Notes under the pieces: model-generated
Told to the model about the DNA's origin: nothing
The model's database searches: none
The model's input: the letters and a program-made list of their open reading frames with translations, nothing else
Position numbers and translations under genes: made by a program
DNA from: Escherichia phage EJP2
Sequence record: OQ411014.1
Reading direction: 5' to 3' (one strand)
DNA: 64,000 bases
Part shown: piece by piece, positions 16,847 to 36,489 of the stretch
Numbering within the stretch: the first letter of the stretch is position 1
Layout of the letters: the number at the start of each line of letters is the position of its first letter

Positions 16847-16875
16847 AAAAAGGAGCCTTTCGGCTCCTTTTTTTT
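16847..16875. terminator. Bidirectional hairpin terminator after the ClpA-like gene
   Basis: AAAAAGGAGCC-TTTC-GGCTCCTTTTTTTT; also terminates the convergent 3337-aa gene. Confidence 0.75.
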
Positions 16876-19800
16876 ATTTGATTAATCCAATAAGAATTAC
16901 AGGTGCAATATCCAAACTATCAGAATAAGTACTCAATGGGATTGGTTCATAACCATCACCGTATACTGCAATTTCATTAGTGTTACCTAAATTCAATCCA
17001 GTACTGGTATACGTTACATCCTTTTCGTAATAATTCTGAACAGTACCGTTATAAGCTCGAACAACGAAGTTGTTTTTGCGAACAAGCATTTGTTCTGCAT
17101 TAGATAGGATAATATCGTCAGGTACAACACCAGGCATTGTAGCGATACCATTTTCATAGGTCATGGTGCTTGCCATCTTCGGCTGACTTACGTGAGTGAA
17201 GCTGTCAAACATTGACTTATAAACAACAGTAACAGTACTGTTAGTGTTAATATACACACCATCAACTAGTGGTTTACTATAGATCCAAGAACCATTGTTA
17301 GCAGTAGGGTTAATTTCAGCTACATCGTATTCAAATACTGAAATTTCCAACGCGTCGGTCATTTTAGTACGAACCAATTCACTTAGTACACCTTTACCGT
17401 ACACTGGTAGGTAATATCCATTATCAACCACAGTTCCATCTTCTAGTGTTTGTGTCTCATTAGTACTGTACCATACATCATAGTCATTGGTAGTTAGTTC
17501 TGGTTCATAATTACCACCAATTAAGGAAGTGTCATAGAACACATCATAATCTAGAGCATCGACTCTGTAAGAACGGTTATTAGTATAACGAGTAATTCCA
17601 CCAGCACTAAACTCTGGGTCATTGAAAGATGTAACTCTAACAATGTTGATACTAGTTGGTTTGTTCTGGTTGTAAAGTGATTCATCAGTACTGTTATAAG
17701 TACTAGTGAAAGTTAATCCACCAATAGTTACAGTATTACCAGATACCGAAGTTACTTTAAACAACTTAGGACGATTAGCATCTTTAATTGTTGCTACACT
17801 CAATACAGTTTTCCAAGAACCATCGTTAATAGCGACTGCGTAATCTGAATTGTCTGGGACAAATACAGCTACCGTTTCGCCAACAACGAAATCATTATCA
17901 CCGTCAAGTTCAACAACACCACTTACTGAAGTTACGTTCTTAATACGATATGAATATTGAATTTCATTCTTTTCCAAAATGCTTCTATTCATGTATTCAA
18001 GAGCAACATCATAACGTGGAATACTTACAAGGGCTTCTGAGCGATTATATGGGTTTTGTACGATATAACCTTCAATATTAAAGTTACCTTGATCACGTAA
18101 TTGTGTCTGTACTGAAGTATCAAATCCATATCCATCAACTGTGAATCTTAGCTGTGCCATATCACGTTTAGATGGGTTAAGTTCTGAAATGTCTACAAAT
18201 ACAGGATCGTTAGTACTGTTAGCGACACCAACAACGGAGTTAATAATAGTTTTAGTTTGTGATTCTAGAGCTAAGTTATCGAATGCGTTTTTATCATCAA
18301 AGAATACTTCTTTATTCAAGCCTGACATGATTTGTAAGAAATCACTATATAGTGGGTTCTTATCATCTTCTGGAACGTCATCAAGTGATGGTTGGCTTAG
18401 GCGAACCATATCCCCATCAGTGATATACACTTCTTCCATATATTCTTCTATGCCAACATTCGAAGGAATGCTATAATCTTTTCCTGGAGTAGTTTCACTC
18501 ATTAGGAAAACATATTTCCTAGGCATCAACACTACTGCATAAGCATCAACATCAAGATTCTCTAATACTTTCTCTGCTGCACTATACGGGTCAGTTTCAT
18601 CAGGATTATAAGTCCCTCTAAGTGCTGATAGAACGTGTACTGCATCAGTATAGAAACGATTAGATTCTGGATTATCATCAGTTTCAGGGATTACATATTT
18701 CCATGTATATAAACCGTATTCATATTCCATGTACTCTAGAATCTCAATGTGAGAGAATCCAGGGTTTGCTTCCTTAACTTGATCATAAATCAAATCATAC
18801 ATTGGTTTGCTGTAAGAGATATAACCATAGTTTTCACCATTGCTTGCACTAAATCCAAACGGCAACCTTGTGCTTGGGTTATCACTCAGTACTAGACCTT
18901 TAAATGGACAACCTACTTCAGAACCAATAGTTTCATCAGATTTGGAAGTTGTTAGCTTCAAACGGTTTGAAAGCGTGTTGTACTGAACATAGTTGCGTAC
19001 TTCACTAACCGATTCAGATTTCTCTTCTGCTTCTGCAATTACACGATTAAGTGTAGCTGTAAATTCATCAGATGCTTCAACATCATTAATTAGTGTTGCA
19101 TACATTTGGTCTAAACCATATTTCAAACCACTACTAATATTCATGTTCGGATAGTACTGCGTAATACCGTTCATGATTAATGTTTCCAACTCAGCATTAT
19201 TAATTTCAGGGAAAGTATATGCATAACGCTGGAGCATGTAGTGGGAGCCTTTTACAAGGAAGTCACCAGTATTAGATTGGTATTTCTTGTTCACGTTTTC
19301 TAGTGTTGTTATATCTGCCATATCGGAAGATGGTTTGCACTGGAAGTTGTCAAAGTCAAGAATAACATCAATCTCTTGGAAACGGCGGTTTGGTAGTACG
19401 AAGTTATTTGGTAGTGAGCCTACGATTTCCCACTTCTGACTTACATCGTTGAATTGAGCATATTCGTAATCCCAAATATCTTTTTGTGTTTTAACCCAAG
19501 CACCATCAACATAGATATAACCGTTAGGATCTAAATCGTTTAATAGACCGTTGATTTCATCTTCATCAGATGTCTTCTGCTCTATTTGTGAACGGATTTT
19601 AGTTCTGTATGGTTTCACTTCTTCAAAGTACTGTACGATTTCATTTATTAAATTACCATCAGTAGTTGATCTTTGTTGTAGTGATTGGTCTAGACCAATA
19701 ATATAAATGTAAGAGGTTTTGAATACCCAGTCCACGACTTTCTGCTCAGTGTGTACGTACTTAACCATGTCAAATACTACAGTACTTTGTACAGAGTTGA

Positions 19801-22800
19801 ATGAACCTTTGAGTAGTGCTAATGCTGCACGAACGTTTTTCTCATTATTCGTTAATGCACCATCGCTGTTGTATTGTGAGTAGTTGTTATAAAGAACATT
19901 GTTCAATTGTACAGTGCTCTTCTCACGACCAACTGCTACCCATTGAACTTGACCACGTGATTCAGTTTTTTCATATAATGTCCAGACACCATCGGCATCG
20001 GTAATACGAATCAAATCACCAATCTGGTAGTTTTTAGTGTTAGCAATTTGAATGCTTGTTTCTTCGGTATATTCTGATTCTTCATCAAAACCAACACTAT
20101 ACCAATCAGCATAATCCCAGTAGGTTGTCATATCTAATGAAGTACCAAGCTGATCAATATAGTCAGTTTGCTTAATCATAGTATGTTGACCTTCACCACG
20201 ACTCTCTAGAGTGATAGTTACCGCAGTACCAGAAGTACTTGGGCTATTCATCAAGTGAATGTAACCGTTGTCGTCGTAATGCACAAAGTACACACTAGTA
20301 CGGTTTAGTGGTGCTGGTAATGTACCATTAGTATTAACCAGTACTGCGTCATTCTCTACAAATTTGTTTTCATTTGTGGTGATAACCAATTCGTTGTTAT
20401 AAGTTAGTACTTTAAATCCAACTTCGTTCGGGTTCACAGCGTCAGTCTTCTTAAAGAAGATATCATCCATTACTACAGTGTCAGTTGTCATGTTAATATG
20501 CTTGTACACATTGTTTGCTGAATCAACAAACGTCCTACGAGCTTCTATAACGTCCATAAACCATGTTTTGTTTGCACCTAGACCCAAGTCAGTACTTGGA
20601 TAAGATAACTCAACCACGTTGCCGTTTAGGAGGGTTTCTTGAGACTCCAAAGAGTTCCATAGAGAATTCCAAATAGCTGGGTTGAAGTTGTATTCTTCAC
20701 CTTCTTTACAAAGTTGATACTGTTCATGTTTAATAACATCATCATTATTTTCTTTGTAAGAAACAGTCAATATACTCTTATCATCGTTAATGTCGTGCTG
20801 CATATTAGATAGAATAAAAGAATTCTCATCTACTGGGGAGAACCAAGGAACTCCGAGTACTGAAGGATCAGCAATAATGCGAGCAATCTCATTACAAGAT
20901 TTGGTACGATGCTTAACATGTGGAGTATAGATTGTATCTTTAACCCAGAAGTAATACATTGGCACATAAGTGTTAGTACTAGCATCATATTCAACAAAAT
21001 AAGAATAGTTTTCAGTAACTGCTGTACCGGATGGTAGGTAAGTGGTCTGGCCTTTATTTTGTTTTTGTTGTTCAGTGCAATACTGATCCCAGTTATATGG
21101 TTCTACTGGCGATTTAACCCATTCGTACACATCAATACTACCATGTGGAAGGATTTTACCCCAATTATAACGCTTATATTCTAGAGTCTTATTTACATCG
21201 ACGTTCCCATTAGCATCAAGGATTGGACGAGTATAATCCATGAAGAATGCAGAAGAAGTATCCCACCAAACTTCACCAACTTTATCAGAACCCCAAGCTA
21301 GTAATGTTTCACCATCACTATTGTAGGTTGCTGGGTCACGAGTAGAGGTATATGAAACGTTTGACATTGCCACACCAGGGATAATACCATTGATTGGGTC
21401 ATATGTGTTAATATACATCTCAACAACGTTAGTCATGGAGTTGTAGGTACTTGGGCGGTCGAACAACGAACTGTTAGGTGCTAAGTACTCATATTTTTTC
21501 TGAACGTATGCATCTTTCGCTGCTTTAGTACTGAAACGTGGAACGTATTTGTACATTACAGGTTCTGCACCACTGAAATCAAAATCTACAGTACTGTCGA
21601 ATGCAACAACTATAGTATTTGCAGTAACACCATAGAATTGTGTTTCTTCACGTAGGAAATCAGGCATATAACCGGACTCATCAACGAAGAAGTAAGTATC
21701 ACCATTACTTAGTGTAGATGAAGAACTTAATTCTAGTGTTACTTTCTGTGCTGCGTATTGGTCATCAGTAATAATTGGAGTAATTTTCTTCAAAGTGATA
21801 TTGGTTTTAACAATATCATAGATATTCCAGTTATCATTAGAATCCTGAAGAACCCATACAGACGATGGTAGTGTATTGTAATCGGAAGTATACTTAGAAC
21901 GGTCTTCATAAGCAGTTTGTAGGTCTAGAGTAGTGAATGACACTTCATCTAGAGTTACAGGGCCGATATTTGGCAACTGAATGTTGTCAGATGCACCTTT
22001 ACGCATTGGGAAAGAGAACAAACCATGTGGACGAGTAATCCAACGTGGGTCTACACCTGTTTTACCAAAATAAACGATGTTATTTGCAGTACTGTCCACA
22101 GTTGCATTCTGGTCGAATGTAACCAATTGTGGTTGTTGAGCAAATTCGTTGTTAATTAGTTGGAACTGTAGGTTCTTTTTGCCATATACGTTGCCATATT
22201 CACCGATTTTGAAAGCCCACTCTTGTAGTGCTTTGTAACCTTCGGTATTATAGGTTTTTGATACACGTAGAACACGTTCGAGTACTTGATTAGTACCTTT
22301 GTCACGGATGAAGCCTTTATAGAAATCAACGCGGGCTGGTTCTGATGTGATCATTTCGTTTAAGTAACTTCTGGACTGGTATCCAATTAAATGATTCGCT
22401 AGGGAACGCAATTGAACATCAGATACTGGATTTTCAGTGTCATAATAGTGTCTAAAGTCATCTACTAGTTTTTCAAAGTCAGGTAGTGTGCCAGTTTCGA
22501 GGATAATAAAGCCAGGTGCTTCCAAACGACCATTCCATGAGCCAGTTACATAACCGTACATACGAATCAATTCTTGAATTGAACCATAAGTTGGAATATA
22601 GATGTTATCACCAAAAATAGTTTTATCATCAAACACGATAGCATGTTCATAAGCGATTAAGCTCAAACGAATAAGAGCAATACGCTTGTTGTATTCTTCT
22701 AAACTACGAACAGTGATGATGTTACCGATACGTGCAGTTTCAATTTCATACGGACGAATACCTGTATTATTATCATCTAGTAGAGTCCATAGACCACCAC

Positions 22801-25800
22801 TATATTGTGCAACTGATTCAACAGAACCAAAAGACGCACCGAATTTAACACTTTTAGTACTTGGAGAACAAGAAATATATTCACCACGAGCTAGAGCAGT
22901 CTGACTCCAGTTCAAATAATCCTTCGCAATTTGATTCCAGTTTAGAGTGTTGCCGTTCTCGTCAGTTTCTTCGAAAATAAACCCAACACGTTCCAAATAT
23001 TCACCATAAGCACACAAGAAAGTGTAAACTTCTTGGAAAGAATTCAGTACTGTACCGTATTCAATACTTTGAACTTTATCAGTGTACTCATTGTAATGAA
23101 CTACTGTACGATTACCTTCACGAATAGTAACACGCTTACCATTACGGTTAGGAGTTAAGTATTTGAAGGATGCACCAACTAGATCATAACCAGTAATCTG
23201 ATATCCAGTGCCGTTCCATGTGATATCAACAGCACTCATTGATTCTTCACGGATGGAAGAGCTACGAACTAGACCGATATGTTGGTTTTCTTGAGAAATT
23301 AGACCGAATGTATCAGAATAAAAACTCAATTGGTCTTCTTTACTGAATCCACCAAGTTTATGACCCACATTAATATGTGAACTACGTAAAACGTCACCGT
23401 ACTTAGTAGTAATATCCATTTGTTTGTACTGTAGGTGATCAGTTATGAACATTTGGTATCCTAGGATACGGCTATTGTTCTCATTGTTCACTAGTGTAGT
23501 ACTGTTTAGGTTCAAACGTTGGTTGGTTTCACCAAATAGGAACTGTTCTTTACCACGATAAACTGTTTTAAGAGTACTACCACGAGTATCATAGAAATAG
23601 TTTGCAAACTGTGCTGGTTTAGCACGATATAGTAGTAGAGCTTCATCATATGGGAACATTGCAGTGTTGCGGTAAGTGAATTCAATATCACCCATGTCAC
23701 CATAAGACCACGGTTCTGCACGATGATCAAGGGAACCAGCCACTAAACCTAGAACTTCTGGAGCAATCAGTTCAAATGTGCGAATTTCTTCACCATCTGC
23801 TGTGAAATTACCAGTACCTTTAATAACGAATGGCTGTTTACCAAAACGTTTGTATTTTGCATAAGTTCCTTTGTTCTTACCATATAGAATTGTACCAGTA
23901 CTAGCGTCACCTTTAATACTACCAACATCCCATAGACCACTTGGTACTAATTGGTTGTTTTCATCAATAACTTCAGCTTCATACACGTATACAACTTCAG
24001 TTGGGTCTTCACCAATACGAATTTTGGTTGGTTCATATTCTTGGTTCCACCAAGATGGGCGTTGAGCAAAACCTAACATTTCCCACGGGTGGGTTGCTGG
24101 GCGATATGTACCGAACATGTCACTATAAATTGCTCTCCATGAGCCACGTGCTGGAATATCGGTAACAACGCCATCAACAACATAAGTTGTTCCTTTGTAG
24201 TTCCAAGTTAACCAGTTATTTGCATCATAATCATGTGTACTGTTATCAATACCGTTAGTTGCGATGAAGTTAGTGTAACCACGTAGTAGAAGTGTTTGCT
24301 TCTCGTCACGAGTATAGTCAGTTTCAGTAAAATAAGGAGTCGGGAATAGATCACTCTGAACAAGTTCAGGTACATAATCAATATCTTTGAAATCATTATC
24401 AATACTGTTGAAAATACGGTTTTCTAGTTCGTAAATCACATCATCCATACGACCTACACCATTCAGTACTTTATACGCCTTGGTAATTGTACCAGTATGG
24501 CTTACGTTATAACAACCTAGGTCACGACCAGCATACATATAAGTCGCTTTCTGTGGAGCGTACGCTTTTAGAATACCAATAAACTGTGGAGTCGGTGGAA
24601 TGAAGGCACGAATGTTAGAACTGGAACTACCCATCGCATCAATGAAGAATGGGAAAGTATTATTCTTACCAACGTTAATATTATTAAGAATTGCGTCAAC
24701 AATATTAGATGCACTGTTGGAAGTGAATGCAGATGGATCTTCATTGTACATATTAACCATTTGAGTATTGAATTTGTTCATGAAACGGAAGTATTCAGAT
24801 TGCATAAATTCAATTGCAGCAAATAGGTCAATATTTTCATTCGCTGTGTTAATCATTAGTGGAAGCATAGATGCTTCGTTCTGGATAATCTTAGTACCGA
24901 CAGAGTTATCAACTAGACCTTTAGCAAGACGTTCTTCGTAGTCGTTAAAATCATTTACTGTACCAGTAGTGATGTTACGTTGAATAATTTCTTGGAAATG
25001 TGGTGTATATAGACTTTGATCAATATAAGTGATAAAATCATTATACGGGTTGTTCTGTAGGTTGATTGGAATTTCATAAGAACCCAAGTTAGTATCTGGT
25101 GTTTGTACAGGACTGTAAGTTCTGATTTCAACAATGCTATCATCGGTTAGTTTGATAGAACTATCTAGAGTTATAGATTCAACAAGACCATTTTTATCCA
25201 ATTTAGTACTGAACTTTGTGGTTTCTTCTGTACCAACACGCACATAAAGTACATCTGTGCTTGATGATAGGTTGACACGTTGAGCTAGTTCAAATGTGTG
25301 GTTAAAAAGTTCAGATGGAACGTAGTCATTACCAGCTTCACGATGCCAGTCCATAAAAGTACTGTTATCTGCTTTGTAATATTTGAATGTTGCATCAATA
25401 TCCATTACATAAGCGTACATATTTTCAATTGGATTTTGGAAATTATTCATCTCTTGTACAGTACTGAATACATTGTACATAGAGGTTTTGGTCATAGCAG
25501 GAACTTGACGAACATACTGTTTGGTAAATTCATCGCTACGATCCCAGTCTGATTTTAGATTTACTGAACCGTCAGAACCAATTACGTTATAGTAATACAA
25601 ACCAGAAATTTCAGTAGTTGCTCCAACTTTATCATAATCATAACGAGTACTCTGAATGAAGTTCTCGAAAACATAATAGTTGTAAGAGTTCAATTCAACG
25701 TTAGTGTTATAGATTTTATTGTAGTTGTAGTCAAAGTTAACTTTAAGGCCAAATAGTGGGGAACCTTTAAAAGAACTACTTGGGTAAATTTGAGGATCGT

Positions 25801-26887
25801 TTAGTTTAGTCCCGTTGCGATCATACAATTGGAACAATGGGGTACTGTTAATACCTGATTTAACTTGTGTACGAATCCATGCTGAACCATTCCAGTACAT
25901 AGAAGTGTTTTCATAAACTTGACCAGATTTAATTAGAACAACGTCACCACGCAAAGGTTCACCCGTTGGGCGTAGCTCAGATTCTTCATCTTCATCAAGA
26001 GCAAGACCATATACACGAGTGCCAGCTTCGGTTTGTTTAATGTAAACTTTATAGATTCTGTTATTTTCACCGCTGTTACCGATACTAGTGAATAGAATAC
26101 GGTCACCAGCTTTAAGAATAAAACCATCAACACGAATTTCATCAGAAACTGATTTCTGTACAATATCTTCTGGTTTGATGGAGTCTGATAGGTACGTGAC
26201 TACACCACGGAAAGTAGTTCCGTAATTCATTAGTTCGATGTTTTTGTTATATTCAATGATTGGTGCTTGAGCATGAGTGAAGCGTTCATCTTGAGTCATG
26301 TCATCAGTTAGTACTGTGCCGTCTGGTAATTCTTGACCTACAGTAAACCAATAGTTTTGTAGTGACCATGTGTTACCGTTATCAGCACCACGTTCCATAA
26401 CGATATAATCCGGTGCAATACCAAATTCGTTATTATTGTCCCAAACATAAGAACTGTAGTTCATCATTTTATTTGGGTTGATTGGTGGAGTCCATGAATA
26501 AAACTTACCATCAAATAGGCGTGACTGGTTATCAGTTAAGGAACCATAATGGGACATATATCCTACTAGGTCTTCATAGAACTGCATAGAGCGAACGCTT
26601 GTGTCGGTATTACGAGACACATAAACTGGTGATAGTTGGTAGTCTTGGCGTTGTTGAGAACTTTCTTTGATGAAAATCTTTCCAGCCGCTGACGGAGTAC
26701 CACGGTCACCTATATACCCGTCAACAATTTCTTGTTCGGCAGGGTTGAACCATTGCTGGATTACATCATCACAAAAAGTTTGGATCTGTTCTAGACCTTG
26801 CATCCACTCAGGCAATCTTTTAATGAATAGCTTTTTTTGTACAGCATCTGCCGCTAGGGTTGGCTGGAACTTAAATTCATTCGACAT
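16874..26887 (-). CDS. Giant virion structural protein (~3337 aa), probable baseplate or tail-fibre component
   Basis: Uninterrupted ~10-kb ORF. Track start is 26908; the third ATG (MSNEF) at 26887 has a GGAGAAT RBS and an exact late motif at 26923-26930. Lies next to the gp6-like gene. Confidence 0.7.
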   Translation of the reverse strand: MSNEFKFQPTLAADAVQKKLFIKRLPEWMQGLEQIQTFCDDVIQQWFNPAEQEIVDGYIGDRGTPSAAGKIFIKESSQQRQDYQLSPVYVSRNTDTSVRSMQFYEDLVGYMSHYGSLTDNQSRLFDGKFYSWTPPINPNKMMNYSSYVWDNNNEFGIAPDYIVMERGADNGNTWSLQNYWFTVGQELPDGTVLTDDMTQDERFTHAQAPIIEYNKNIELMNYGTTFRGVVTYLSDSIKPEDIVQKSVSDEIRVDGFILKAGDRILFTSIGNSGENNRIYKVYIKQTEAGTRVYGLALDEDEESELRPTGEPLRGDVVLIKSGQVYENTSMYWNGSAWIRTQVKSGINSTPLFQLYDRNGTKLNDPQIYPSSSFKGSPLFGLKVNFDYNYNKIYNTNVELNSYNYYVFENFIQSTRYDYDKVGATTEISGLYYYNVIGSDGSVNLKSDWDRSDEFTKQYVRQVPAMTKTSMYNVFSTVQEMNNFQNPIENMYAYVMDIDATFKYYKADNSTFMDWHREAGNDYVPSELFNHTFELAQRVNLSSSTDVLYVRVGTEETTKFSTKLDKNGLVESITLDSSIKLTDDSIVEIRTYSPVQTPDTNLGSYEIPINLQNNPYNDFITYIDQSLYTPHFQEIIQRNITTGTVNDFNDYEERLAKGLVDNSVGTKIIQNEASMLPLMINTANENIDLFAAIEFMQSEYFRFMNKFNTQMVNMYNEDPSAFTSNSASNIVDAILNNINVGKNNTFPFFIDAMGSSSSNIRAFIPPTPQFIGILKAYAPQKATYMYAGRDLGCYNVSHTGTITKAYKVLNGVGRMDDVIYELENRIFNSIDNDFKDIDYVPELVQSDLFPTPYFTETDYTRDEKQTLLLRGYTNFIATNGIDNSTHDYDANNWLTWNYKGTTYVVDGVVTDIPARGSWRAIYSDMFGTYRPATHPWEMLGFAQRPSWWNQEYEPTKIRIGEDPTEVVYVYEAEVIDENNQLVPSGLWDVGSIKGDASTGTILYGKNKGTYAKYKRFGKQPFVIKGTGNFTADGEEIRTFELIAPEVLGLVAGSLDHRAEPWSYGDMGDIEFTYRNTAMFPYDEALLLYRAKPAQFANYFYDTRGSTLKTVYRGKEQFLFGETNQRLNLNSTTLVNNENNSRILGYQMFITDHLQYKQMDITTKYGDVLRSSHINVGHKLGGFSKEDQLSFYSDTFGLISQENQHIGLVRSSSIREESMSAVDITWNGTGYQITGYDLVGASFKYLTPNRNGKRVTIREGNRTVVHYNEYTDKVQSIEYGTVLNSFQEVYTFLCAYGEYLERVGFIFEETDENGNTLNWNQIAKDYLNWSQTALARGEYISCSPSTKSVKFGASFGSVESVAQYSGGLWTLLDDNNTGIRPYEIETARIGNIITVRSLEEYNKRIALIRLSLIAYEHAIVFDDKTIFGDNIYIPTYGSIQELIRMYGYVTGSWNGRLEAPGFIILETGTLPDFEKLVDDFRHYYDTENPVSDVQLRSLANHLIGYQSRSYLNEMITSEPARVDFYKGFIRDKGTNQVLERVLRVSKTYNTEGYKALQEWAFKIGEYGNVYGKKNLQFQLINNEFAQQPQLVTFDQNATVDSTANNIVYFGKTGVDPRWITRPHGLFSFPMRKGASDNIQLPNIGPVTLDEVSFTTLDLQTAYEDRSKYTSDYNTLPSSVWVLQDSNDNWNIYDIVKTNITLKKITPIITDDQYAAQKVTLELSSSSTLSNGDTYFFVDESGYMPDFLREETQFYGVTANTIVVAFDSTVDFDFSGAEPVMYKYVPRFSTKAAKDAYVQKKYEYLAPNSSLFDRPSTYNSMTNVVEMYINTYDPINGIIPGVAMSNVSYTSTRDPATYNSDGETLLAWGSDKVGEVWWDTSSAFFMDYTRPILDANGNVDVNKTLEYKRYNWGKILPHGSIDVYEWVKSPVEPYNWDQYCTEQQKQNKGQTTYLPSGTAVTENYSYFVEYDASTNTYVPMYYFWVKDTIYTPHVKHRTKSCNEIARIIADPSVLGVPWFSPVDENSFILSNMQHDINDDKSILTVSYKENNDDVIKHEQYQLCKEGEEYNFNPAIWNSLWNSLESQETLLNGNVVELSYPSTDLGLGANKTWFMDVIEARRTFVDSANNVYKHINMTTDTVVMDDIFFKKTDAVNPNEVGFKVLTYNNELVITTNENKFVENDAVLVNTNGTLPAPLNRTSVYFVHYDDNGYIHLMNSPSTSGTAVTITLESRGEGQHTMIKQTDYIDQLGTSLDMTTYWDYADWYSVGFDEESEYTEETSIQIANTKNYQIGDLIRITDADGVWTLYEKTESRGQVQWVAVGREKSTVQLNNVLYNNYSQYNSDGALTNNEKNVRAALALLKGSFNSVQSTVVFDMVKYVHTEQKVVDWVFKTSYIYIIGLDQSLQQRSTTDGNLINEIVQYFEEVKPYRTKIRSQIEQKTSDEDEINGLLNDLDPNGYIYVDGAWVKTQKDIWDYEYAQFNDVSQKWEIVGSLPNNFVLPNRRFQEIDVILDFDNFQCKPSSDMADITTLENVNKKYQSNTGDFLVKGSHYMLQRYAYTFPEINNAELETLIMNGITQYYPNMNISSGLKYGLDQMYATLINDVEASDEFTATLNRVIAEAEEKSESVSEVRNYVQYNTLSNRLKLTTSKSDETIGSEVGCPFKGLVLSDNPSTRLPFGFSASNGENYGYISYSKPMYDLIYDQVKEANPGFSHIEILEYMEYEYGLYTWKYVIPETDDNPESNRFYTDAVHVLSALRGTYNPDETDPYSAAEKVLENLDVDAYAVVLMPRKYVFLMSETTPGKDYSIPSNVGIEEYMEEVYITDGDMVRLSQPSLDDVPEDDKNPLYSDFLQIMSGLNKEVFFDDKNAFDNLALESQTKTIINSVVGVANSTNDPVFVDISELNPSKRDMAQLRFTVDGYGFDTSVQTQLRDQGNFNIEGYIVQNPYNRSEALVSIPRYDVALEYMNRSILEKNEIQYSYRIKNVTSVSGVVELDGDNDFVVGETVAVFVPDNSDYAVAINDGSWKTVLSVATIKDANRPKLFKVTSVSGNTVTIGGLTFTSTYNSTDESLYNQNKPTSINIVRVTSFNDPEFSAGGITRYTNNRSYRVDALDYDVFYDTSLIGGNYEPELTTNDYDVWYSTNETQTLEDGTVVDNGYYLPVYGKGVLSELVRTKMTDALEISVFEYDVAEINPTANNGSWIYSKPLVDGVYINTNSTVTVVYKSMFDSFTHVSQPKMASTMTYENGIATMPGVVPDDIILSNAEQMLVRKNNFVVRAYNGTVQNYYEKDVTYTSTGLNLGNTNEIAVYGDGYEPIPLSTYSDSLDIAPVILIGLIK

Positions 26888-26922
26888 TTTATTCTCCATA
26901 AAATTCATTTCTTCATTTGTTT

Positions 26923-30941: not shown

Positions 30942-31430
30942 TTATTGGGATTCTACAATACGAGCTAATTTCTCTGCACGTGAAGTAGTTTGCTTATACC
31001 AAGTACTATCACGCATTTGACGTCCAGCTTCTTTATAATCACCCGCACCCATAGCAGCTAATGCTTTTTTGAAACCTAGAACACGACGTTTACCCATTTG
31101 AAAACACATTTGCCACAATACACGCTGGAGATCAATACCACCTTTCATACCGAATTGCTCATAAATCTCTTTTGCGTCATTAAATGCAACAGTTGCGTCT
31201 TTAATTAGTAGTGCATCGCCTTCTGACTCAGTTAAACCATTAGGAAATGTTTCGCCATTTACTAGCAAGTGACCATAACCAATAGTTGGTAAACCTAGAC
31301 TGTCTTTATATACATGAAACCGCCCGTTTTTAAAATATCCCTTCTTAGTTTGATAAGCGATAGTACCTTCATGCTCACGTACTTCTTTGTGGAAGATACT
31401 ATCGTCATTTTTTAAAACCCAATTGCTCAT
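30942..31430 (-). CDS. T4-lysozyme-like GH24 endolysin (162 aa)
   Basis: EHEG...YKDSLGLPTIGYGHLL and C-terminal MRDSTWYKQT align to T4 lysozyme with the catalytic Glu/Asp/Thr positions conserved; paralog of the C-terminal domain of the adjacent spike gene. Confidence 0.85.
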   Translation of the reverse strand: MSNWVLKNDDSIFHKEVREHEGTIAYQTKKGYFKNGRFHVYKDSLGLPTIGYGHLLVNGETFPNGLTESEGDALLIKDATVAFNDAKEIYEQFGMKGGIDLQRVLWQMCFQMGKRRVLGFKKALAAMGAGDYKEAGRQMRDSTWYKQTTSRAEKLARIVESQ

Positions 31431-31463: not shown

Positions 31464-34157
31464 TTATGCACATGCCTCGATTCTGCGTGCTAATTCCTCA
31501 ACACGTCTACGAGTTTGTCTATACCAAGTACTGTCACGCATTTCATGGGCTGCTAATTTGTAATTGCCTGCTGCTAGTGCTTTTAAGAAATTGGTAAACC
31601 CACGAACGCCACCACCACGTGTTTTACTACCAGCACCAAGCTGGAATACCATCTCTGTCAGTACTATCTGTGCCATATAAGGTGTTTGCATCTTATATTC
31701 AGCATAAATTTGACATGCAGAGTTTACGGATGAAACCAAATCTTTTTTAAGAATAGTTTCAGCTTCAGCTTCTGTAATACCATTAGGGAAACCACCATCT
31801 GCTCTAGTTAGGAAGTGACCATAACCAATTGTCAGACCATGAGCATCAACATAAGGCCAGAATCTACCATTACGGAAGGTTCCAACTGATGTTTGGTATC
31901 CAATGTTACCTTCAAACTCTTTAATATCCGAAACAAGCTGGTTATCACTCGGTTGTACCTTCCAACCAATCTTGGATTTGTCAATAGAACTCAAATCAAC
32001 ACGTGAAGCAGGTGGCTCATTGGTTGCATTACTAGTTGAGCGTCGTTTCGCTGTTGTTCTTCGTGGGATACGTTTAGAACCACGTTGTGCATATCCAGTA
32101 CCGATACCACTTACCTTGCGAATGACAACCAAATCAGTACTGTCAACCGAACTTTGACTATCTGTAATTGGTGGAGCGTTCTTATTCGATACTTCACCCT
32201 TAGTTAGTGACTTGCCAGCGGCATCTTCACCTTGTCCAGTGACTGTTGTGTAGAATAATCCAGGGTCAACTGTACCACTAAAGCCAAATAAGTTTGCAGA
32301 ACGGGTTCTGACCTCAAAATTGAGCACTCCATTAACTGTACCAATTACTGCACCCTTTTGTACCATATCTTTATTGTACAAATTAGTACTGATACCGTAG
32401 AATATACTCTTATAACCACTCTTATGTGTAATTACTAAACCATTCTTACCTACAGTTGTGATTAATCCACCATCAGGGGCAACTACATCACCTTTGGCTT
32501 GAATAATCCAACCATTTCTGTTAGTTTGTGTTCCCTTATCAGTAGGTACTTGTTTACCCCAATAACCGAACTCACGAATAACACCACTCACAGGCATTAC
32601 CATCTGTAATCCTTCAAATGTTTGTGGATATGTCATTTCTGATGGAGATTGTGTTAAATCTTGTGTCATTACTTCACCAACTTCTTCAGTAGTGTTTATG
32701 AACTGAACTGCTTCTGTTTCCTGAACTGGAACAGTTTGAACTTCAACATCATTTGCTGGTTCTGGCTGTACTGGGTCAGTTGTTGAGCTTCTACCACCAC
32801 CATTTACTGGAGGATTCATTGCATCACTATGGTTTTCTGCATCAGTGAACTGTGAGTGATAGTGGATGTGGTCATTAAGGCCAACACTAGGAGTTTTGAA
32901 GTTTGGAGCCATAAATTCTGCACTTCCGTGGTTACCAGATGAATCAACTGTTAGTGTTTGTCCACCCCCACTAATATTAACTGTGGTTCCACCAATCAAG
33001 TTAGCAGATGTTTCACCTTTAATGGAAACAGTTGTTCCAGCAGTCATGTCCGTATTAGATCCACTCTGCATACGCAAAGATGCAGCAGTAACTAGACGTA
33101 AATCTGCTCCAACGTTAACAACTACCTGACCAGATACTTTAGTATCTAAAGAACCAAGCAATTCTAACTTAGTAGCTCCTGCTACACGCCAGTTCATATC
33201 TTTACCTACATCAAAGTTAACAGAACCTGTTGCATTGAAGTTAATGTCTTGACCAGAACGAATATTCACGTTCTTGTCACAATATAAATCAATATCACCA
33301 TCAGCAGTAAATTTAATACGAGCAGTACCATCGCGGTTAATCAAAAGAACGTCACCACTTGCTTCACTCAATAGTAATTGAGCACCACTACGAGTTCTTA
33401 GTACAATGCCTTCGTTTTTACGACCACCAACGGTTGTATCATTGACTGGGTTACTAAATTGGGTATCCTGATAACCATCTGGGTCATCAGCCCATGTAGG
33501 AGCATTCAATTCAGCATCTGTGTAGCCATCATCCAGAATAAAACTGTTTCCACGAGGTGAAGACATACCATAAACAGTACTGGTAGTTTGTCTAGTGGAA
33601 CTTCTGTTAGCAACACCTGCTTCTTCATCATATAGTAAGTTTTGTTTCTTCAATCCTTCAATCATTGGGACGTTTGGGTACTTTTCTTCACGATTTGTTT
33701 GAATTGTGTTACGATCATAGTCAGTTACTGGTACTGGCATGTCATGACCACTATTAGGCATCACTTCGGTTGCCATACCAGGAACCATTGTGTTCATACG
33801 CTCATCATATAGACATGCAAACCAATAAGCATCGAAAATACGACCTTGCTTAAAGCATACGGCAACTGTACAACCAACATCCGGTGGTACAGCCCAGAAT
33901 CCGTATCCTTTTGGGTACTGTTGATATGAGTTAGCTCCAGGAACACCCGGAGTTCTTCCTGCGAATGGGGCAAGATATCTTGCCTCAATCCATGAATCTT
34001 TAGAATCTCTGTCACTCTGAGAACCTTCAATCCAAACCTTTAGTTTCCCACTATGAGTTGGGTCACGGTTATCCATTACTGTAGCTAATTGGATAAATCT
34101 GGGGTCAAAACGTGCTAGTTGGTTTTCAGCGAACTGTTTACTGTTATTGGTCGCCAT
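31464..34157 (-). CDS. Baseplate hub spike, gp5-like, with OB-fold, beta-helix (HIHYH), degenerate M23/LytM-like domain and C-terminal T4-lysozyme-like domain
   Basis: N-terminal gp5/VgrG-type OB motif (ATVMDNRDPTHSGKLKVWIEG...WIEARYLAPFAG); beta-helix repeats with HIHYH; M23-like block (32307-32600) with zinc-ligand positions substituted; C-terminal domain (31464-31964) aligns to T4 lysozyme with catalytic residues intact. Start placed at MATNNSK (AAGGA RBS); track start is 34196. Confidence 0.8.
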   Translation of the reverse strand: MATNNSKQFAENQLARFDPRFIQLATVMDNRDPTHSGKLKVWIEGSQSDRDSKDSWIEARYLAPFAGRTPGVPGANSYQQYPKGYGFWAVPPDVGCTVAVCFKQGRIFDAYWFACLYDERMNTMVPGMATEVMPNSGHDMPVPVTDYDRNTIQTNREEKYPNVPMIEGLKKQNLLYDEEAGVANRSSTRQTTSTVYGMSSPRGNSFILDDGYTDAELNAPTWADDPDGYQDTQFSNPVNDTTVGGRKNEGIVLRTRSGAQLLLSEASGDVLLINRDGTARIKFTADGDIDLYCDKNVNIRSGQDINFNATGSVNFDVGKDMNWRVAGATKLELLGSLDTKVSGQVVVNVGADLRLVTAASLRMQSGSNTDMTAGTTVSIKGETSANLIGGTTVNISGGGQTLTVDSSGNHGSAEFMAPNFKTPSVGLNDHIHYHSQFTDAENHSDAMNPPVNGGGRSSTTDPVQPEPANDVEVQTVPVQETEAVQFINTTEEVGEVMTQDLTQSPSEMTYPQTFEGLQMVMPVSGVIREFGYWGKQVPTDKGTQTNRNGWIIQAKGDVVAPDGGLITTVGKNGLVITHKSGYKSIFYGISTNLYNKDMVQKGAVIGTVNGVLNFEVRTRSANLFGFSGTVDPGLFYTTVTGQGEDAAGKSLTKGEVSNKNAPPITDSQSSVDSTDLVVIRKVSGIGTGYAQRGSKRIPRRTTAKRRSTSNATNEPPASRVDLSSIDKSKIGWKVQPSDNQLVSDIKEFEGNIGYQTSVGTFRNGRFWPYVDAHGLTIGYGHFLTRADGGFPNGITEAEAETILKKDLVSSVNSACQIYAEYKMQTPYMAQIVLTEMVFQLGAGSKTRGGGVRGFTNFLKALAAGNYKLAAHEMRDSTWYRQTRRRVEELARRIEACA

Positions 34158-36489
34158 TGCTTGCTGTTCCTTCATCATAATCAGTAGTTTGGTCACGACG
34201 ACGTAGTGAACGGATCACTAATCCACCAGTTAATTGCTGGGTGAACTTACCAGAACCATCAAATTCACTCACAACACTGTTTACACGGTAAATTGTTTGC
34301 GTGAAGATGGTTGGTGTGTCGATTTCCAAAATACCTGTGTTGTTACTAATAGCAACAACGGGTTTAATATTCAATAGTAGATATGCTTCACTGTCAATGT
34401 AGTTTGCGAAGTGAATATCGTCATCACCGACAGCCATTTCTTGGTCATTTACAACTCTATCAAGGTATTGTAGGTAAGAGTAGTCACTCCATCCCAACCA
34501 GTACGGATCACCAATAACCTTCATGTCCAATTTACCTAAGAATGCACGGTTATAGTAGTTGTCACGCATCAAACGACGATCCATTTCGTATTCAGTACTG
34601 TTATCGTTTACAGAACCACTGGTTGCTGTTACGATGTTTGTTGGTTCCAACGGAATTGACTTAACTTGTCCATTATCAGAGCCAATACCTTCAGTACCTG
34701 CATAAGTTAGGTCATATTCATCACGATAGTCTTCAATATATTCATTTACACGAGCGTGAACGTCCAAACGTGTCTCAAGTTGTTCCTTGACACCTTCAAT
34801 TGATAAACCTAGTTTATCAGAAGCGGCTGCGGTTGCATCACGTATGAATTGTTGCTCTTCATCTGATAGTGCACGACCTTCACGCTCATCTTTCTCCAAC
34901 TGAACCTTCTTTGACCACATTGCAGTTACGTTTGTGGTTACTGACGTATCATATCGAACATCATCGAGTACTAATATTTCAGCATTGTGAGTACCTAAAC
35001 GGTTGTCGAAGTCGATTTGTGTTGTTGGGTTACGTGTTACTGCTAAGTTGAATCCTTGGTCGAATTTAATATCCAGATTAAGAATTTCTTGGTTAAGACC
35101 TGTAAACTGATAGTCATAACGTTTAATATTCAATTTAGGAGTATTGTCATTTGGGTCTGCGAATTTATCTGCATTCTCAAAGAAGTATTCAATGTTGAAT
35201 TTGTCTTGCTTTAAGTCATCTTCACTAGTTACATCACCAATTTTATATTTTACAATATAGAAATCGTTTTTATAGACTGATGTATTACGAATATTATCAA
35301 ATCCGACATAACGACGAACTGGAATGATATTCACGAACTGACGTTTGCGGTCAGTACTTTCATGTAGAGGAACACAACAGTCCAGTACATCATCTATTGC
35401 ACGAGAGAATGGCACGTTAGCAGCCCAAGAGAAGTTCTTAGCACCTTGTTGACCATTCTTAGTATTACCAACTTCAGTACTTTGTTTAGCATCATAGTTG
35501 ATAGTCATAGTTGCTAGTTCAGAAGGAACATGAATAGTAAAGAATTCATTGTTTGCAAATTCTGGATATTTAAATGTTAAATAACCATACTGTTCTTCTG
35601 CTTGTTCATTTAGTTTATCCTGAATGCTTTGAAGAAAGTCACCAAAGGTTGCTGATGTGCATGTATATGGTTCTAGCATTGTCCAGTCTTTGTTATCAAC
35701 CAATGCAGTACGGTTTGCCACTAAATTCATGTCGTACTTAACAGTACCACCAGATTCAGTTGCACGACCTTTAATATCGTTAATCCTCACACACCATTTA
35801 CGGTTCAATCCAGTTATAGTTTCTGGTTTACCAGTATTTTGGTCATATCCAACGAAGTTCAATTCTAATACCATTGGCACGTCCATGAATTTTTGATATC
35901 CAAGACGGTTAGACATTACAACTATCTCATCCCATAAACTCATACCTGAGTCTTCTGAAATTTCAATAGTACATTCGTTGAATGAGAAGTTTGAAGTACT
36001 GGCTGGTGTCGCTGGTGCTACACTTTTGATTTTTACGTTAGTAATTGAATATCTTCCAGTTACCCCAGATTGTGCTATAATATATTTTGTAATTTGTTGG
36101 TTCGGTGATGACCAAAACAACGCATATTCTTCGGGTTCCATACTGTACAAAGAAAAGTTCCAAGTTACATTATGATACTTCAAAAGAATATTTTCATATG
36201 GTAGTACTATGTCGTTTAGGTTCCAGTCATTCTTAACTGACAAGTCATCAGTACTTCTAGCGTTAGTATTCTTTGGTCTTTCATCATTCGGTTTAGCACT
36301 AAATGGGTTAGAAATATTTGGCATTGCACCTTTAACCACATTAGTGACTTCTCCTTTGACAGTACTTTTTACTTTATCGATTGAAGGAATCTTACCTTTA
36401 ATTTCGGCAACTTTCTCTTGAGCAACTTCAACTGGTCTGTTGAGTTGGTCAACTGTAGCTGTAACGATTCCTTGTACATTATTTGCCAT
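34144..36489 (-). CDS. Hypothetical baseplate-associated protein (781 aa)
   Basis: Long ORF immediately upstream of, and overlapping, the gp5-like gene; RBS AAAGGA. Confidence 0.5.
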   Translation of the reverse strand: MANNVQGIVTATVDQLNRPVEVAQEKVAEIKGKIPSIDKVKSTVKGEVTNVVKGAMPNISNPFSAKPNDERPKNTNARSTDDLSVKNDWNLNDIVLPYENILLKYHNVTWNFSLYSMEPEEYALFWSSPNQQITKYIIAQSGVTGRYSITNVKIKSVAPATPASTSNFSFNECTIEISEDSGMSLWDEIVVMSNRLGYQKFMDVPMVLELNFVGYDQNTGKPETITGLNRKWCVRINDIKGRATESGGTVKYDMNLVANRTALVDNKDWTMLEPYTCTSATFGDFLQSIQDKLNEQAEEQYGYLTFKYPEFANNEFFTIHVPSELATMTINYDAKQSTEVGNTKNGQQGAKNFSWAANVPFSRAIDDVLDCCVPLHESTDRKRQFVNIIPVRRYVGFDNIRNTSVYKNDFYIVKYKIGDVTSEDDLKQDKFNIEYFFENADKFADPNDNTPKLNIKRYDYQFTGLNQEILNLDIKFDQGFNLAVTRNPTTQIDFDNRLGTHNAEILVLDDVRYDTSVTTNVTAMWSKKVQLEKDEREGRALSDEEQQFIRDATAAASDKLGLSIEGVKEQLETRLDVHARVNEYIEDYRDEYDLTYAGTEGIGSDNGQVKSIPLEPTNIVTATSGSVNDNSTEYEMDRRLMRDNYYNRAFLGKLDMKVIGDPYWLGWSDYSYLQYLDRVVNDQEMAVGDDDIHFANYIDSEAYLLLNIKPVVAISNNTGILEIDTPTIFTQTIYRVNSVVSEFDGSGKFTQQLTGGLVIRSLRRRDQTTDYDEGTASNGDQ

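What the first reader, a model, noticed from the sequence alone, without database searches (positions are those of the whole stretch)
31464..34157. gp5-like baseplate spike with rearranged domain order and two cell-wall-hydrolase-type domains, one a degenerate LytM
T4 gp5 is OB-fold, lysozyme, then C-terminal beta-helix needle. Here the order is OB-fold, beta-helix with HIHYH, an M23/LytM-like domain (32307-32600), then a C-terminal T4-lysozyme-like domain (31464-31964). The M23 block aligns in shape (FGYWG...GDVVAPDGGLI...GLVITHKSGYKSIFYGIS...VIGTVNG...LNFEV) but the zinc-ligand histidines of the HxxxD and HxH motifs appear substituted, as in non-catalytic LytM regulators such as EnvC/NlpD. 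About 450 residues lie beyond the beta-helix tip, which implies either proteolytic processing (as T4 gp5 is cleaved) or a different puncturing geometry. One speculation is that a degenerate LytM domain recruits or activates host amidases during entry.
Basis: partly seen in the sequence, partly recalled or inferred. Interest (0 to 1): 0.65.

Follow-up and report, generated by a model that had tools for sequence, protein, structure and literature searches.

The report
Jumbo-phage tail spike with lysozyme cargo
This gene encodes the central tail spike of a RaK2-like giant phage: a needle carrying a catalytically dead LytM (M23) domain and an intact lysozyme behind its tip. The layout is already published for related phages, so only the "dead LytM" detail is new.

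Summary
ORF 31464..34157(-) (897 aa) reads OB-fold, beta-helix, invariant HxH apex, M23/LytM-fold domain, GH24 lysozyme.

- **Dead active site:** all five M23 zinc/catalytic positions are substituted (R547, I551, G588, V611, N613). No sequence among the query and 94 homologs keeps more than one.
- **Live lysozyme:** the GH24 Glu/Asp are kept in 94 of 95.
- **One correction:** cargo-less homologs align to about residue 505-520. The spike module therefore runs well past the HxH, and the cargo is about 390 residues, not 450.

It is not new. It matches PHROG 13211 full-length and is 75% identical to the Erwinia phage Hallingskeid protein. The RaK2 paper (2013) described the unusual order. The CBB paper (2017) noted the central M23 domain and found the protein in virions. 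No paper I read calls the M23 domain inactive.

Most likely it works like an evolved VgrG, carrying a muramidase plus a non-catalytic LytM adaptor into the periplasm. Host-amidase activation remains untested speculation.

The parts
31464..34157 (-). Whole CDS of the central baseplate spike (897 aa plus stop). [quoted passage not shown]
   Evidence: ORF. PHROG 13211 full-length match, 1478.7 bits. 75% identical to the Erwinia phage Hallingskeid protein, 60-63% to PBECO4, G17 and other Rak2-like jumbo-phage proteins and 60% to the GAP32 protein (P0036). Gene order identical to Hallingskeid.
33768..34157 (-). N-terminal gp5/VgrG-type OB-fold domain (about residues 1-130).
   Evidence: Pfam Phage_base_V at 24-71, 25.1 bits against cut-off 23.8. 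It is among the best-conserved parts of the family (0.68 mean identity; only the adjacent 131-245 segment is higher, 0.71).
32883..33767 (-). Middle region and intertwined beta-helix (about residues 131-425).
   Evidence: DUF2345 repeats at 279-326, below cut-off in the query and above it in homolog P0098 (31.4 bits, cut-off 30.7). In the AF2 monomer, blocks of residues about 251-420 have pLDDT 81-91, yet residues about 300-392 show no intrachain strands. That is what an inter-chain triple helix would give (inference). CBB_240 HHpred matched P. aeruginosa VgrG.
32856..32870 (-). HIHYH motif (H430-H434), a P2 gpV-type apex histidine-cage (HxH) motif.
   Evidence: H430 and H432 are invariant in 95/95. 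The HxH iron cage of P2 gpV is described in bioRxiv 10.1101/2023.02.25.529910.
32643..32855 (-). Post-apex segment of the spike module (residues 435 to about 505), with conserved PPxxGGG and PANDV motifs, a predicted strand (479-487) and a predicted helix (491-501).
   Evidence: Cargo-less homologs (569-590 aa) align with the family profile up to position 499-527. Block pLDDT is 67-84 over about residues 431-500 and collapses at 503-511. Motifs seen.
32193..32600 (-). Degenerate LytM (M23-fold) domain, about residues 520-655. It lacks all zinc-binding and catalytic residues.
31953..32192 (-). Second linker (about residues 656-735). It holds the conserved IGSGYxQRGSxxxPRR motif and a basic disordered stretch.
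   Evidence: pLDDT 39-41 at residues 701-720, and a predicted strand at 677-684. G693 and P698 are invariant. Alignment shown.
31467..31952 (-). C-terminal GH24 (T4/P22-type) lysozyme domain, with the catalytic Glu and Asp conserved and Thr present in the query.
30942..31430 (-). Stand-alone 162-aa GH24 lysozyme immediately downstream, a paralog of the spike's C-terminal domain.
   Evidence: 45% identity, E 3e-46. Pfam Phage_lysozyme. The same tandem arrangement is annotated in Hallingskeid, RaK2 and CBB. It was not confirmed as a virion protein in CBB.

Best explanation
This is the central membrane-piercing spike of the contractile tail of a RaK2-like (PBECO4/GAP32/CBB-type) jumbo myovirus.

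**Needle.** Residues 1 to about 505 form it: an OB-fold that docks on the hub, an intertwined trimeric beta-helix, and a P2 gpV-type HxH apex with a short conserved post-apex segment.

**Cargo.** A disordered hinge at about residues 503-511 tethers a cell-wall cargo of about 390 residues. It consists of a LytM/M23-fold domain that has lost every zinc ligand and catalytic histidine, then a second linker, then an intact GH24 muramidase.

**Proposed mechanism (inferred).**
- As with an 'evolved' T6SS VgrG, tail contraction drives the spike through the outer membrane and carries the three cargo copies into the periplasm.
- There the GH24 domain cuts glycan strands locally so that the tube can pass.
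- The dead LytM domain cannot cut peptide cross-links. It acts as a non-catalytic binding module, using the former substrate groove either to hold peptidoglycan stems or to bind a protein partner, and so positions or regulates the muramidase.

**Shown here:** domain identities, loss of the M23 active site, an intact GH24 catalytic Glu/Asp pair (Thr present in the query), modularity of the cargo, and family membership.

**Inferred:** trimer geometry, delivery into the periplasm, and the role of the LytM domain.
For: - **Identity and family.** Full-length PHROG 13211 match. 75% to about 60% identity to annotated baseplate hub/tail lysozyme proteins of Rak2-like jumbo phages. It sits between gp53-like and gp25/gp6-like baseplate genes. 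Homologs CBB_240 and phAPEC6 gp241 were detected in virions by mass spectrometry.
- **Needle.** Phage_base_V is above cut-off and DUF2345 repeats are present. The HxH is invariant.
- **M23 fold.**
- **Dead active site in the query and all 94 homologs.**
- **The domain is still constrained.** Mean identity is 0.58, like GH24 (0.55) and above the linkers (0.44-0.45). Invariant residues include W550, R617 and D631-P632-G633.
- **GH24 active site conserved.**
- **Cargo is modular.**
  - Cargo-less spikes end at about profile position 500-527.
  - Other relatives carry GH108, M15_4, SLT or Hydrolase_2 C-terminally.
  - AF2 confidence collapses exactly at the junction, residues 503-511.
- **Precedents.** Evolved VgrGs carry C-terminal lysozyme-like or peptidase effectors (PMC9927483, PMC6899460). 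P2 gpV is translocated into the periplasm (section heading listed).
Against: - No trimer model or coordinates were available, so where the cargo sits is unknown: at the tip, or folded back along the helix as in T4 gp5.
- Work on P2 gpV indicates that spike diameter limits infection efficiency (abstract). A bulky cargo at the tip could therefore be a handicap unless it is flexible or removed.
- RaK2 gp078 was not detected by mass spectrometry, and no peptide map shows that the C-terminal part stays in virions.
- Known degenerate LytM domains (EnvC, NlpD, DipM, SpoIIQ, Csd2) act mostly by protein-protein contacts. A peptidoglycan-binding role therefore has little precedent, and no partner was identified here.
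Confidence: 0.7

Rival explanations
1. EnvC mimic. Once in the periplasm, the dead LytM domain binds the interaction helix of the host amidases AmiA/AmiB/AmiC in its groove, relieves their autoinhibition, and makes the host's own amidases open the wall at the entry site.
Against: - There is no direct evidence.
- Sequence similarity to E. coli EnvC is weak: 12.9 bits, covering only the C-terminal half.
- The residues at the degenerate positions differ. By eye from the EnvC sequence, EnvC has W/V/Y/S/Y where the spike has R/I/G/V/N.
- Only three copies per virion would act stoichiometrically on dispersed enzymes.
- By source names, the family also occurs in Vibrio, Xanthomonas and Erwinia phages.
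- From my own knowledge, T4-type lysozymes prefer peptide-bearing MurNAc, so stripping stems would not obviously help the adjacent GH24.
Confidence: 0.1
2. Cis-regulator. The dead LytM domain binds the spike's own GH24 domain, or the neighbouring stand-alone lysozyme. It keeps the enzyme latent in the virion, or stimulates it after release, as DipM's LytM domain controls lytic transglycosylases.
For: The top Foldseek hit, 7qrl, is titled 'LytM domain of DipM, a coordinator of a complex net of autolysins'. The LytM and GH24 domains are linked in nearly all full-length family members, and a paralogous lysozyme gene is conserved next door. From my own knowledge, T4 gp5 lysozyme is likewise held inactive in the assembled spike.
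Against: No contact information could be extracted, because only pLDDT and secondary structure were returned. The linker between the two domains contains a disordered stretch of about 20 residues, which argues against a fixed interface.
Confidence: 0.2
3. Assembly or structural element. The LytM-fold domain docks the cargo onto another baseplate or hub protein or onto the beta-helix, or it is a scaffold removed by proteolysis during maturation. In that case it has no role in wall degradation.
For: SpoIIQ and Csd2 show that dead LytM domains can serve as pure protein-protein interfaces (hits). Conserved motifs in both linkers (PPxxGGG, IGSGYxQRGSxxxPRR) could be docking or cleavage sites. RaK2 gp078 escaped mass-spectrometric detection.
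Against: Cargo-less homologs have the same needle module, and their locus shows no separately encoded LytM or GH24 within 7 kb. The needle therefore appears not to need this domain. phAPEC6 gp241 is listed at its full predicted mass (95.9 kDa) among virion proteins, but without peptide positions.
Confidence: 0.2
4. The M23-like domain is still a peptidase and uses non-canonical residues.
For: Some residues are invariant or nearly so (W550, H578, E615, R617, D631).
Against: H578, E615 and R617 match residues of ordinary M23 sequences (idH, FE, R) that lie outside the five zinc/catalytic positions (alignments), so they are plausibly inherited fold residues. All five zinc/catalytic positions are substituted and variable across the family.
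Confidence: 0.03

Closest known systems
Baseplate hub/tail lysozyme of Rak2-like jumbo phages (RaK2 gp078, CBB_240, GAP32, phAPEC6 gp241, Hallingskeid CDS0423; PHROG 13211)
   Same: Same family over the full length, with the same domain order and the same neighbouring genes, including the extra lysozyme. Identity is 75% to Hallingskeid and about 60% to the others. The unusual order was published in 2013 and the central M23 domain in 2017.
   Different: It is a new sequence, with no megablast match in phage records. The papers read here call the middle domain an M23 peptidase or 'no match', and none states that it lacks the active site.
Phage T4 gp5
   Same: Central spike with an OB-fold, a triple beta-helix and a T4-type lysozyme domain. 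The lysozyme domains are homologous.
   Different: In T4 the lysozyme lies between the OB-fold and the helix, and a separate tip protein caps the needle. Here the lysozyme is C-terminal to the helix and apex, an additional dead LytM domain is present, and the apex is fused (HxH).
Evolved T6SS VgrG spikes with C-terminal cell-wall effectors (V. cholerae VgrG3-type pesticin/lysozyme-like; P. aeruginosa VgrG2b)
   Same: OB-fold and beta-helix spike with an enzymatic cargo fused after the helix and delivered to the target periplasm (PMC9927483, PMC6899460). VgrG-type repeats (DUF2345) are detected.
   Different: This is a phage virion protein, not a secretion-system component. It has no gp27-like domain fused at the N-terminus, carries two cargo domains of which one is inactive, and has no immunity protein.
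P2 gpV / phi92 gp138 spikes
   Same: Invariant HxH motif at the end of the beta-helix, matching the iron-binding histidine cage of the apex domain.
   Different: From my own knowledge, those spikes end shortly after the apex. Here about 460 more residues follow.
Degenerate LytM factors (EnvC, NlpD, DipM, SpoIIQ, Csd2, PrgK LytM)
   Same: M23 fold with lost zinc ligands. They are the closest structural matches.
   Different: Those are bacterial envelope proteins with known partners. No partner is known here. Sequence identity is only 18-25%, and different residues occupy the degenerate positions.
Virion-associated M23 enzymes of other phages (phi29 gp13 lysozyme+M23, lactococcal Tal, M23 domains in tape-measure and internal proteins)
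   Same: An M23-fold domain in tail or ejection proteins, sometimes combined with a lysozyme (BFVD hits). phi29 gp13 and Tal are cited from my own knowledge.
   Different: Those M23 domains are generally regarded as active endopeptidases (own knowledge; not checked here). This one is dead throughout its family.

Membership tests
PHROG 13211 / Rak2-like baseplate hub and tail lysozyme | Full-length similarity to the family profile. | tested here: met
   1478.7 bits, residues 3-896 against profile positions 2-886 of 887. 94 homologs at 34-100% identity.
gp5/VgrG central spike | N-terminal OB-fold (Phage_base_V). | tested here: met
   25.1 bits against cut-off 23.8.
gp5/VgrG central spike | Trimeric intertwined beta-helix. 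| tested here: inconclusive
   DUF2345 is below cut-off in the query (22.4 against 30.7) and above it in homolog P0098. The monomer model is extended and confident but shows no intrachain sheets. No trimer prediction was possible.
gp5/VgrG central spike | Encoded among baseplate genes and present in virions. | tested here: met
   Flanked by gp53-like, gp25-like and gp6-like genes. Virion presence comes from mass spectrometry of the homologs CBB_240 and phAPEC6 gp241, not of this phage.
T4 gp5 architecture | Order OB-fold, lysozyme, beta-helix. | tested here: not met
   The order here is OB-fold, beta-helix, apex, LytM, lysozyme.
P2 gpV-type apex | Conserved HxH motif at the end of the helix. 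| tested here: met
   H430 and H432 invariant in 95/95.
P2 gpV-type apex | Metal ion held by six histidines of the trimer. | not testable with these tools
   Needs a structure or metal analysis.
Peptidase M23 (fold) | LytM/M23 beta-sheet fold. | tested here: met
Peptidase M23 (active enzyme) | HxxxD and HxH zinc ligands plus the catalytic His. | tested here: not met
   R547, I551, G588, V611 and N613 occupy those positions. At most 1 of 5 canonical residues is kept in any of the 95 sequences.
Degenerate LytM activators (EnvC/NlpD type) | M23 fold without zinc ligands. | tested here: met
Degenerate LytM activators (EnvC/NlpD type) | Groove binds and activates a cell-wall amidase. | not testable with these tools
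   No coordinates were returned and no binding assay is possible. The paper listing EnvC groove residues (PMC3923381) was not available.
GH24 lysozyme | Family profile above cut-off and T4-lysozyme fold. | tested here: met
GH24 lysozyme | Catalytic Glu, Asp and Thr. | tested here: met
   E749 and D771 are each kept in 94/95; the T776 column is T in 64/95. Correspondence to T4 E11/D20/T26 was read from the sequence motifs FEG...YxD..G.TIGYGH, with a 13-residue insertion.

The most novel reading that the evidence does not exclude
The catalytically dead LytM domain on the spike is a viral mimic of EnvC/NlpD. Delivered into the periplasm at the tip of the tail, it would switch on the host's autoinhibited amidases (or other autolysins) at the point of entry, so that the phage opens the wall partly with the host's own enzymes.
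Probability: 0.1. Interest if true: 0.75.

Novelty: new member of a known kind. Interest (0 to 1): 0.3.

Why it matters
Mostly it does not change the picture. This is an annotated, published type of jumbo-phage spike, and its rearranged order and M23-like middle domain are already in the literature.

Two modest points are worth keeping:
- **The M23 domain is dead yet conserved.** This holds across the query and all 94 homologs examined. Annotations such as 'peptidase' or 'amidase' for it are therefore probably wrong, and it is a clean candidate for a virus-borne non-catalytic LytM adaptor.
- **The needle and its cargo are separable modules.** The same needle module occurs without cargo, or with GH108, M15, SLT or SleB-type cargo. 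These phage spikes therefore behave like evolved VgrGs with exchangeable cell-wall effectors. That is useful for annotating spikes and for engineering spike-borne enzymes.

Tried and rejected
- **Megablast of the gene against phage records:** no match. Only protein-level similarity exists.
- **Active M23 domains in related spikes:** I looked for a relative with an active M23 domain in the same position. Among the best 150 of 1668 library matches to the LytM profile, only family members have the spike N-terminus. The nearest outsiders are multi-repeat, largely degenerate M23-like proteins.
- **Separately encoded cargo next to a cargo-less spike (P0096 locus):** none within 7 kb.
- **Motif shared with the phiKp24 tail-tube protein (8bfk):** E=0.52 and no other copy in the window, so I treated it as probable chance.
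- **Mass-spectrometry peptide positions, to test processing:** phAPEC6 has no supplements held as text, and the CBB supplements give only presence or absence.
- **Residue-level comparison with the EnvC groove:** the structure-function paper was not available, model coordinates are not exposed, and the profile aligns only the C-terminal half of the EnvC LytM domain.
- **NCBIfam:** nothing useful.
- **The 781-aa upstream protein:** no Pfam, NCBIfam or PDB match.
Full report
**What is there.** The minus-strand ORF 31464..34157 encodes 897 aa from an ATG that has an AAGGA 10 nt upstream. A longer GTG start at 34196 and a 903-aa call in a 100%-identical database protein are alternatives. It lies in a baseplate gene block:
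- a gp53-like 103-aa gene;
- an unassigned 781-aa virion protein;
- this gene;
- a 162-aa GH24 lysozyme;
- a gp25-like gene;
- a gp6-like 1171-aa gene;
- a 3344-aa virion protein.

[quoted passage not shown] By tblastn it is 75% identical to the Erwinia phage Hallingskeid protein. It is 60-63% identical to those of PBECO4, G17 and other ~350-kb Rak2-like jumbo phages, and 60% to the GAP32 protein (P0036). Gene order matches Hallingskeid exactly. No nucleotide-level match exists, so the phage is new but the gene family is not.

**Checking the domains.** Pfam gives four hits:

| Domain | Residues | Bits | Cut-off |
|---|---|---|---|
| Phage_base_V (OB-fold) | 24-71 | 25.1 | 23.8 |
| DUF2345 (VgrG beta-helix repeats) | 279-326 | 22.4 | 30.7 |
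| Peptidase_M23 | 552-609 | 21.8 | 28.7 |
| Phage_lysozyme (GH24) | 768-892 | 33.2 | 22.3 |

I tested the weak M23 signal in three independent ways.
- A profile of residues 495-655 from 41 family members hits solved M23 proteins: LasA 2.5e-7, SpoIIQ 7e-7, pseudoalterin 4e-6 and DipM 3e-5.
- An AlphaFold2 model of that segment is confident (mean pLDDT 90.3). Foldseek against the PDB counts 47 hits with E<=0.001. Of the 50 rows listed, all but two weak ones (3our_B, 2mp0_B) are M23/LytM proteins. They are led by the DipM LytM domain and include Csd2, PrgK LytM, SpoIIQ and EnvC.

The fold assignment is therefore solid and well beyond chance.

**Is the LytM domain degenerate?** I aligned the family profile to canonical M23 sequences that carry HxGxD, YxH and HxH, and to LasA, SpoIIQ and DipM. 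That places R547 at the first zinc histidine and I551 at the aspartate. G588 falls at the catalytic histidine, and V611 and N613 fall at the HxH pair. In the 95-sequence family alignment (the query plus 94 homologs, down to 34% identity) these columns are variable. No sequence retains more than one canonical residue.

The domain is nevertheless under constraint. Its mean identity to the query is 0.58. That is like GH24 (0.55) and the beta-helix (0.53), and above the two linkers (0.44-0.45). Invariant residues include P522, G525, W550, R617 and D631-P632-G633-x-F635.

The GH24 domain keeps its catalytic Glu and Asp (E749 and D771, each 94/95). The query has Thr at T776, a column that is T in 64 of 95. 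The same motifs occur in the neighbouring 162-aa lysozyme, which is 45% identical.

**Where the spike ends and the cargo begins.** H430 and H432 of HIHYH are invariant. This matches the HxH histidine cage of the P2 gpV apex (bioRxiv 10.1101/2023.02.25.529910).

Distant homologs of 569-590 aa have no LytM or lysozyme, yet they align with the family profile up to position 499-527. AlphaFold confidence collapses at residues 503-511. The needle module thus includes about 70 conserved residues after the HxH, and the appended cargo is about 390 residues rather than 450.

Other distant spike homologs carry GH108, Peptidase_M15_4, SLT or Hydrolase_2 domains C-terminally on the same scaffold. The locus of one cargo-less spike encodes no LytM or GH24 within 7 kb. 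The cargo is therefore an exchangeable, optional module.

**How it most likely works.** The architecture parallels evolved T6SS VgrG spikes. Those carry lysozyme-like or peptidase effectors fused after the beta-helix and deliver them into the target periplasm (PMC9927483, PMC6899460). P2 gpV is likewise reported to be translocated to the periplasm (section heading).

I infer three steps:
- contraction pushes the needle and its three tethered cargo copies across the outer membrane;
- the GH24 domain then cuts glycan strands;
- the dead LytM domain serves as a binding module.

Whether that module binds peptidoglycan stems, the phage's own lysozyme, a baseplate protein or host autolysins cannot be decided here. 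The tools returned no coordinates or inter-domain confidence.

The EnvC-mimic idea rests on fold similarity and on the known mechanism of EnvC, where the amidase interaction helix docks in the LytM groove (PMC10268282). Against it, similarity to E. coli EnvC is weak and different residues fill the degenerate positions. I give it about 10%.

**Comparison with the literature.**
- The RaK2 genome paper (PMC3622015, 2013) described gp078 (886 aa) as having 'a very unusual domain composition'. It reported a beta-helix flanked by unmatched regions and a C-terminal lysozyme.
- The CBB paper (PMC5259590, 2017) noted the N-terminal gp5 OB domain and the C-terminal lysozyme, and wrote that 'CBB_250' (in context CBB_240) may carry a centrally located M23 domain (pfam01551, E 6.5e-4) also identifiable in other Rak2-like phages. 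Its supplement lists an HHpred match to a P. aeruginosa T6SS spike, and the protein was detected in virions.
- phAPEC6 gp241 was also found in virions.
- None of the papers I read states that the M23 domain has lost its active site. A full-text search for 'degenerate LytM' together with 'phage' and 'tail' found nothing relevant.

**Verdict.** However, the feature is a new member of a known, published family. The incremental findings are:
- family-wide loss of the M23 active site with retained conservation;
- a corrected boundary between needle and cargo;
- modular, VgrG-like cargo exchange among related spikes.

Interest is modest (0.3). The amidase-hijack reading would be interesting if true but is unsupported.

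Noticed in passing
window 32598-32669 (-), residues 497-520: The segment VMTQDLTQSPSEMTYPQTFEGLQMV, just before the LytM domain, resembles residues 208-232 of the phiKp24 tail-tube protein gp119 (PDB 8bfk). The phmmer E-value is only 0.52, and there is no second copy in the window.
   Followed up: partly
window 32052-32099 (-), residues about 687-702, and 31998-32057 (-), residues 701-720: A strongly conserved motif, IGSGYxQRGSxxxPRR (G693 and P698 invariant), is followed by a basic disordered stretch between the LytM and lysozyme domains. It could be a docking or cleavage site; its function is unknown.
   Followed up: partly
window 32748-32822 (-), residues 446-470: Conserved PPxxGGG and PxPANDV motifs lie directly after the HxH apex. 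From memory, the glycine run recalls the autoproteolysis site of lactococcal Tal proteins. Not tested.
   Followed up: no
window 30942-31430 (-): A stand-alone 162-aa GH24 lysozyme is 45% identical to the spike's C-terminal domain. Both share a 13-residue insertion between the catalytic Glu and Asp. The tandem pair is conserved in Hallingskeid, RaK2 and CBB, and the small protein was not confirmed in CBB virions.
   Followed up: partly
window 34144-36489 (-): A 781-aa virion protein (PHROG 11190) lies between the gp53-like gene and the spike and overlaps the spike start by 14 nt. It has no Pfam, NCBIfam or PDB sequence match. By position it is a candidate for the gp27-like hub.
   Followed up: partly
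window 16874-26908 (-): A giant 3344-aa virion structural protein (PHROG 10938) sits next to the gp6-like baseplate wedge gene.
   Followed up: no
proteins P0122-P0134 and P0179 (library hits): The best non-family matches to the LytM profile are proteins with two to four M23-like repeats, and the repeats whose alignments were read (P0129, P0179) lack the canonical histidines. P0179 combines an N-terminal GH24 domain with two dead M23-like domains. Their origin is unknown.
   Followed up: partly
window 14555-16840 (+): A 761-aa protein (PHROG 4871, 'ATP-dependent protease', with many weaker AAA/ATPase-family matches) is encoded between tail and virion genes. The syntenic 732-aa gene in the related locus L001 carries AAA and ClpB_D2-small Pfam domains.
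   Followed up: no
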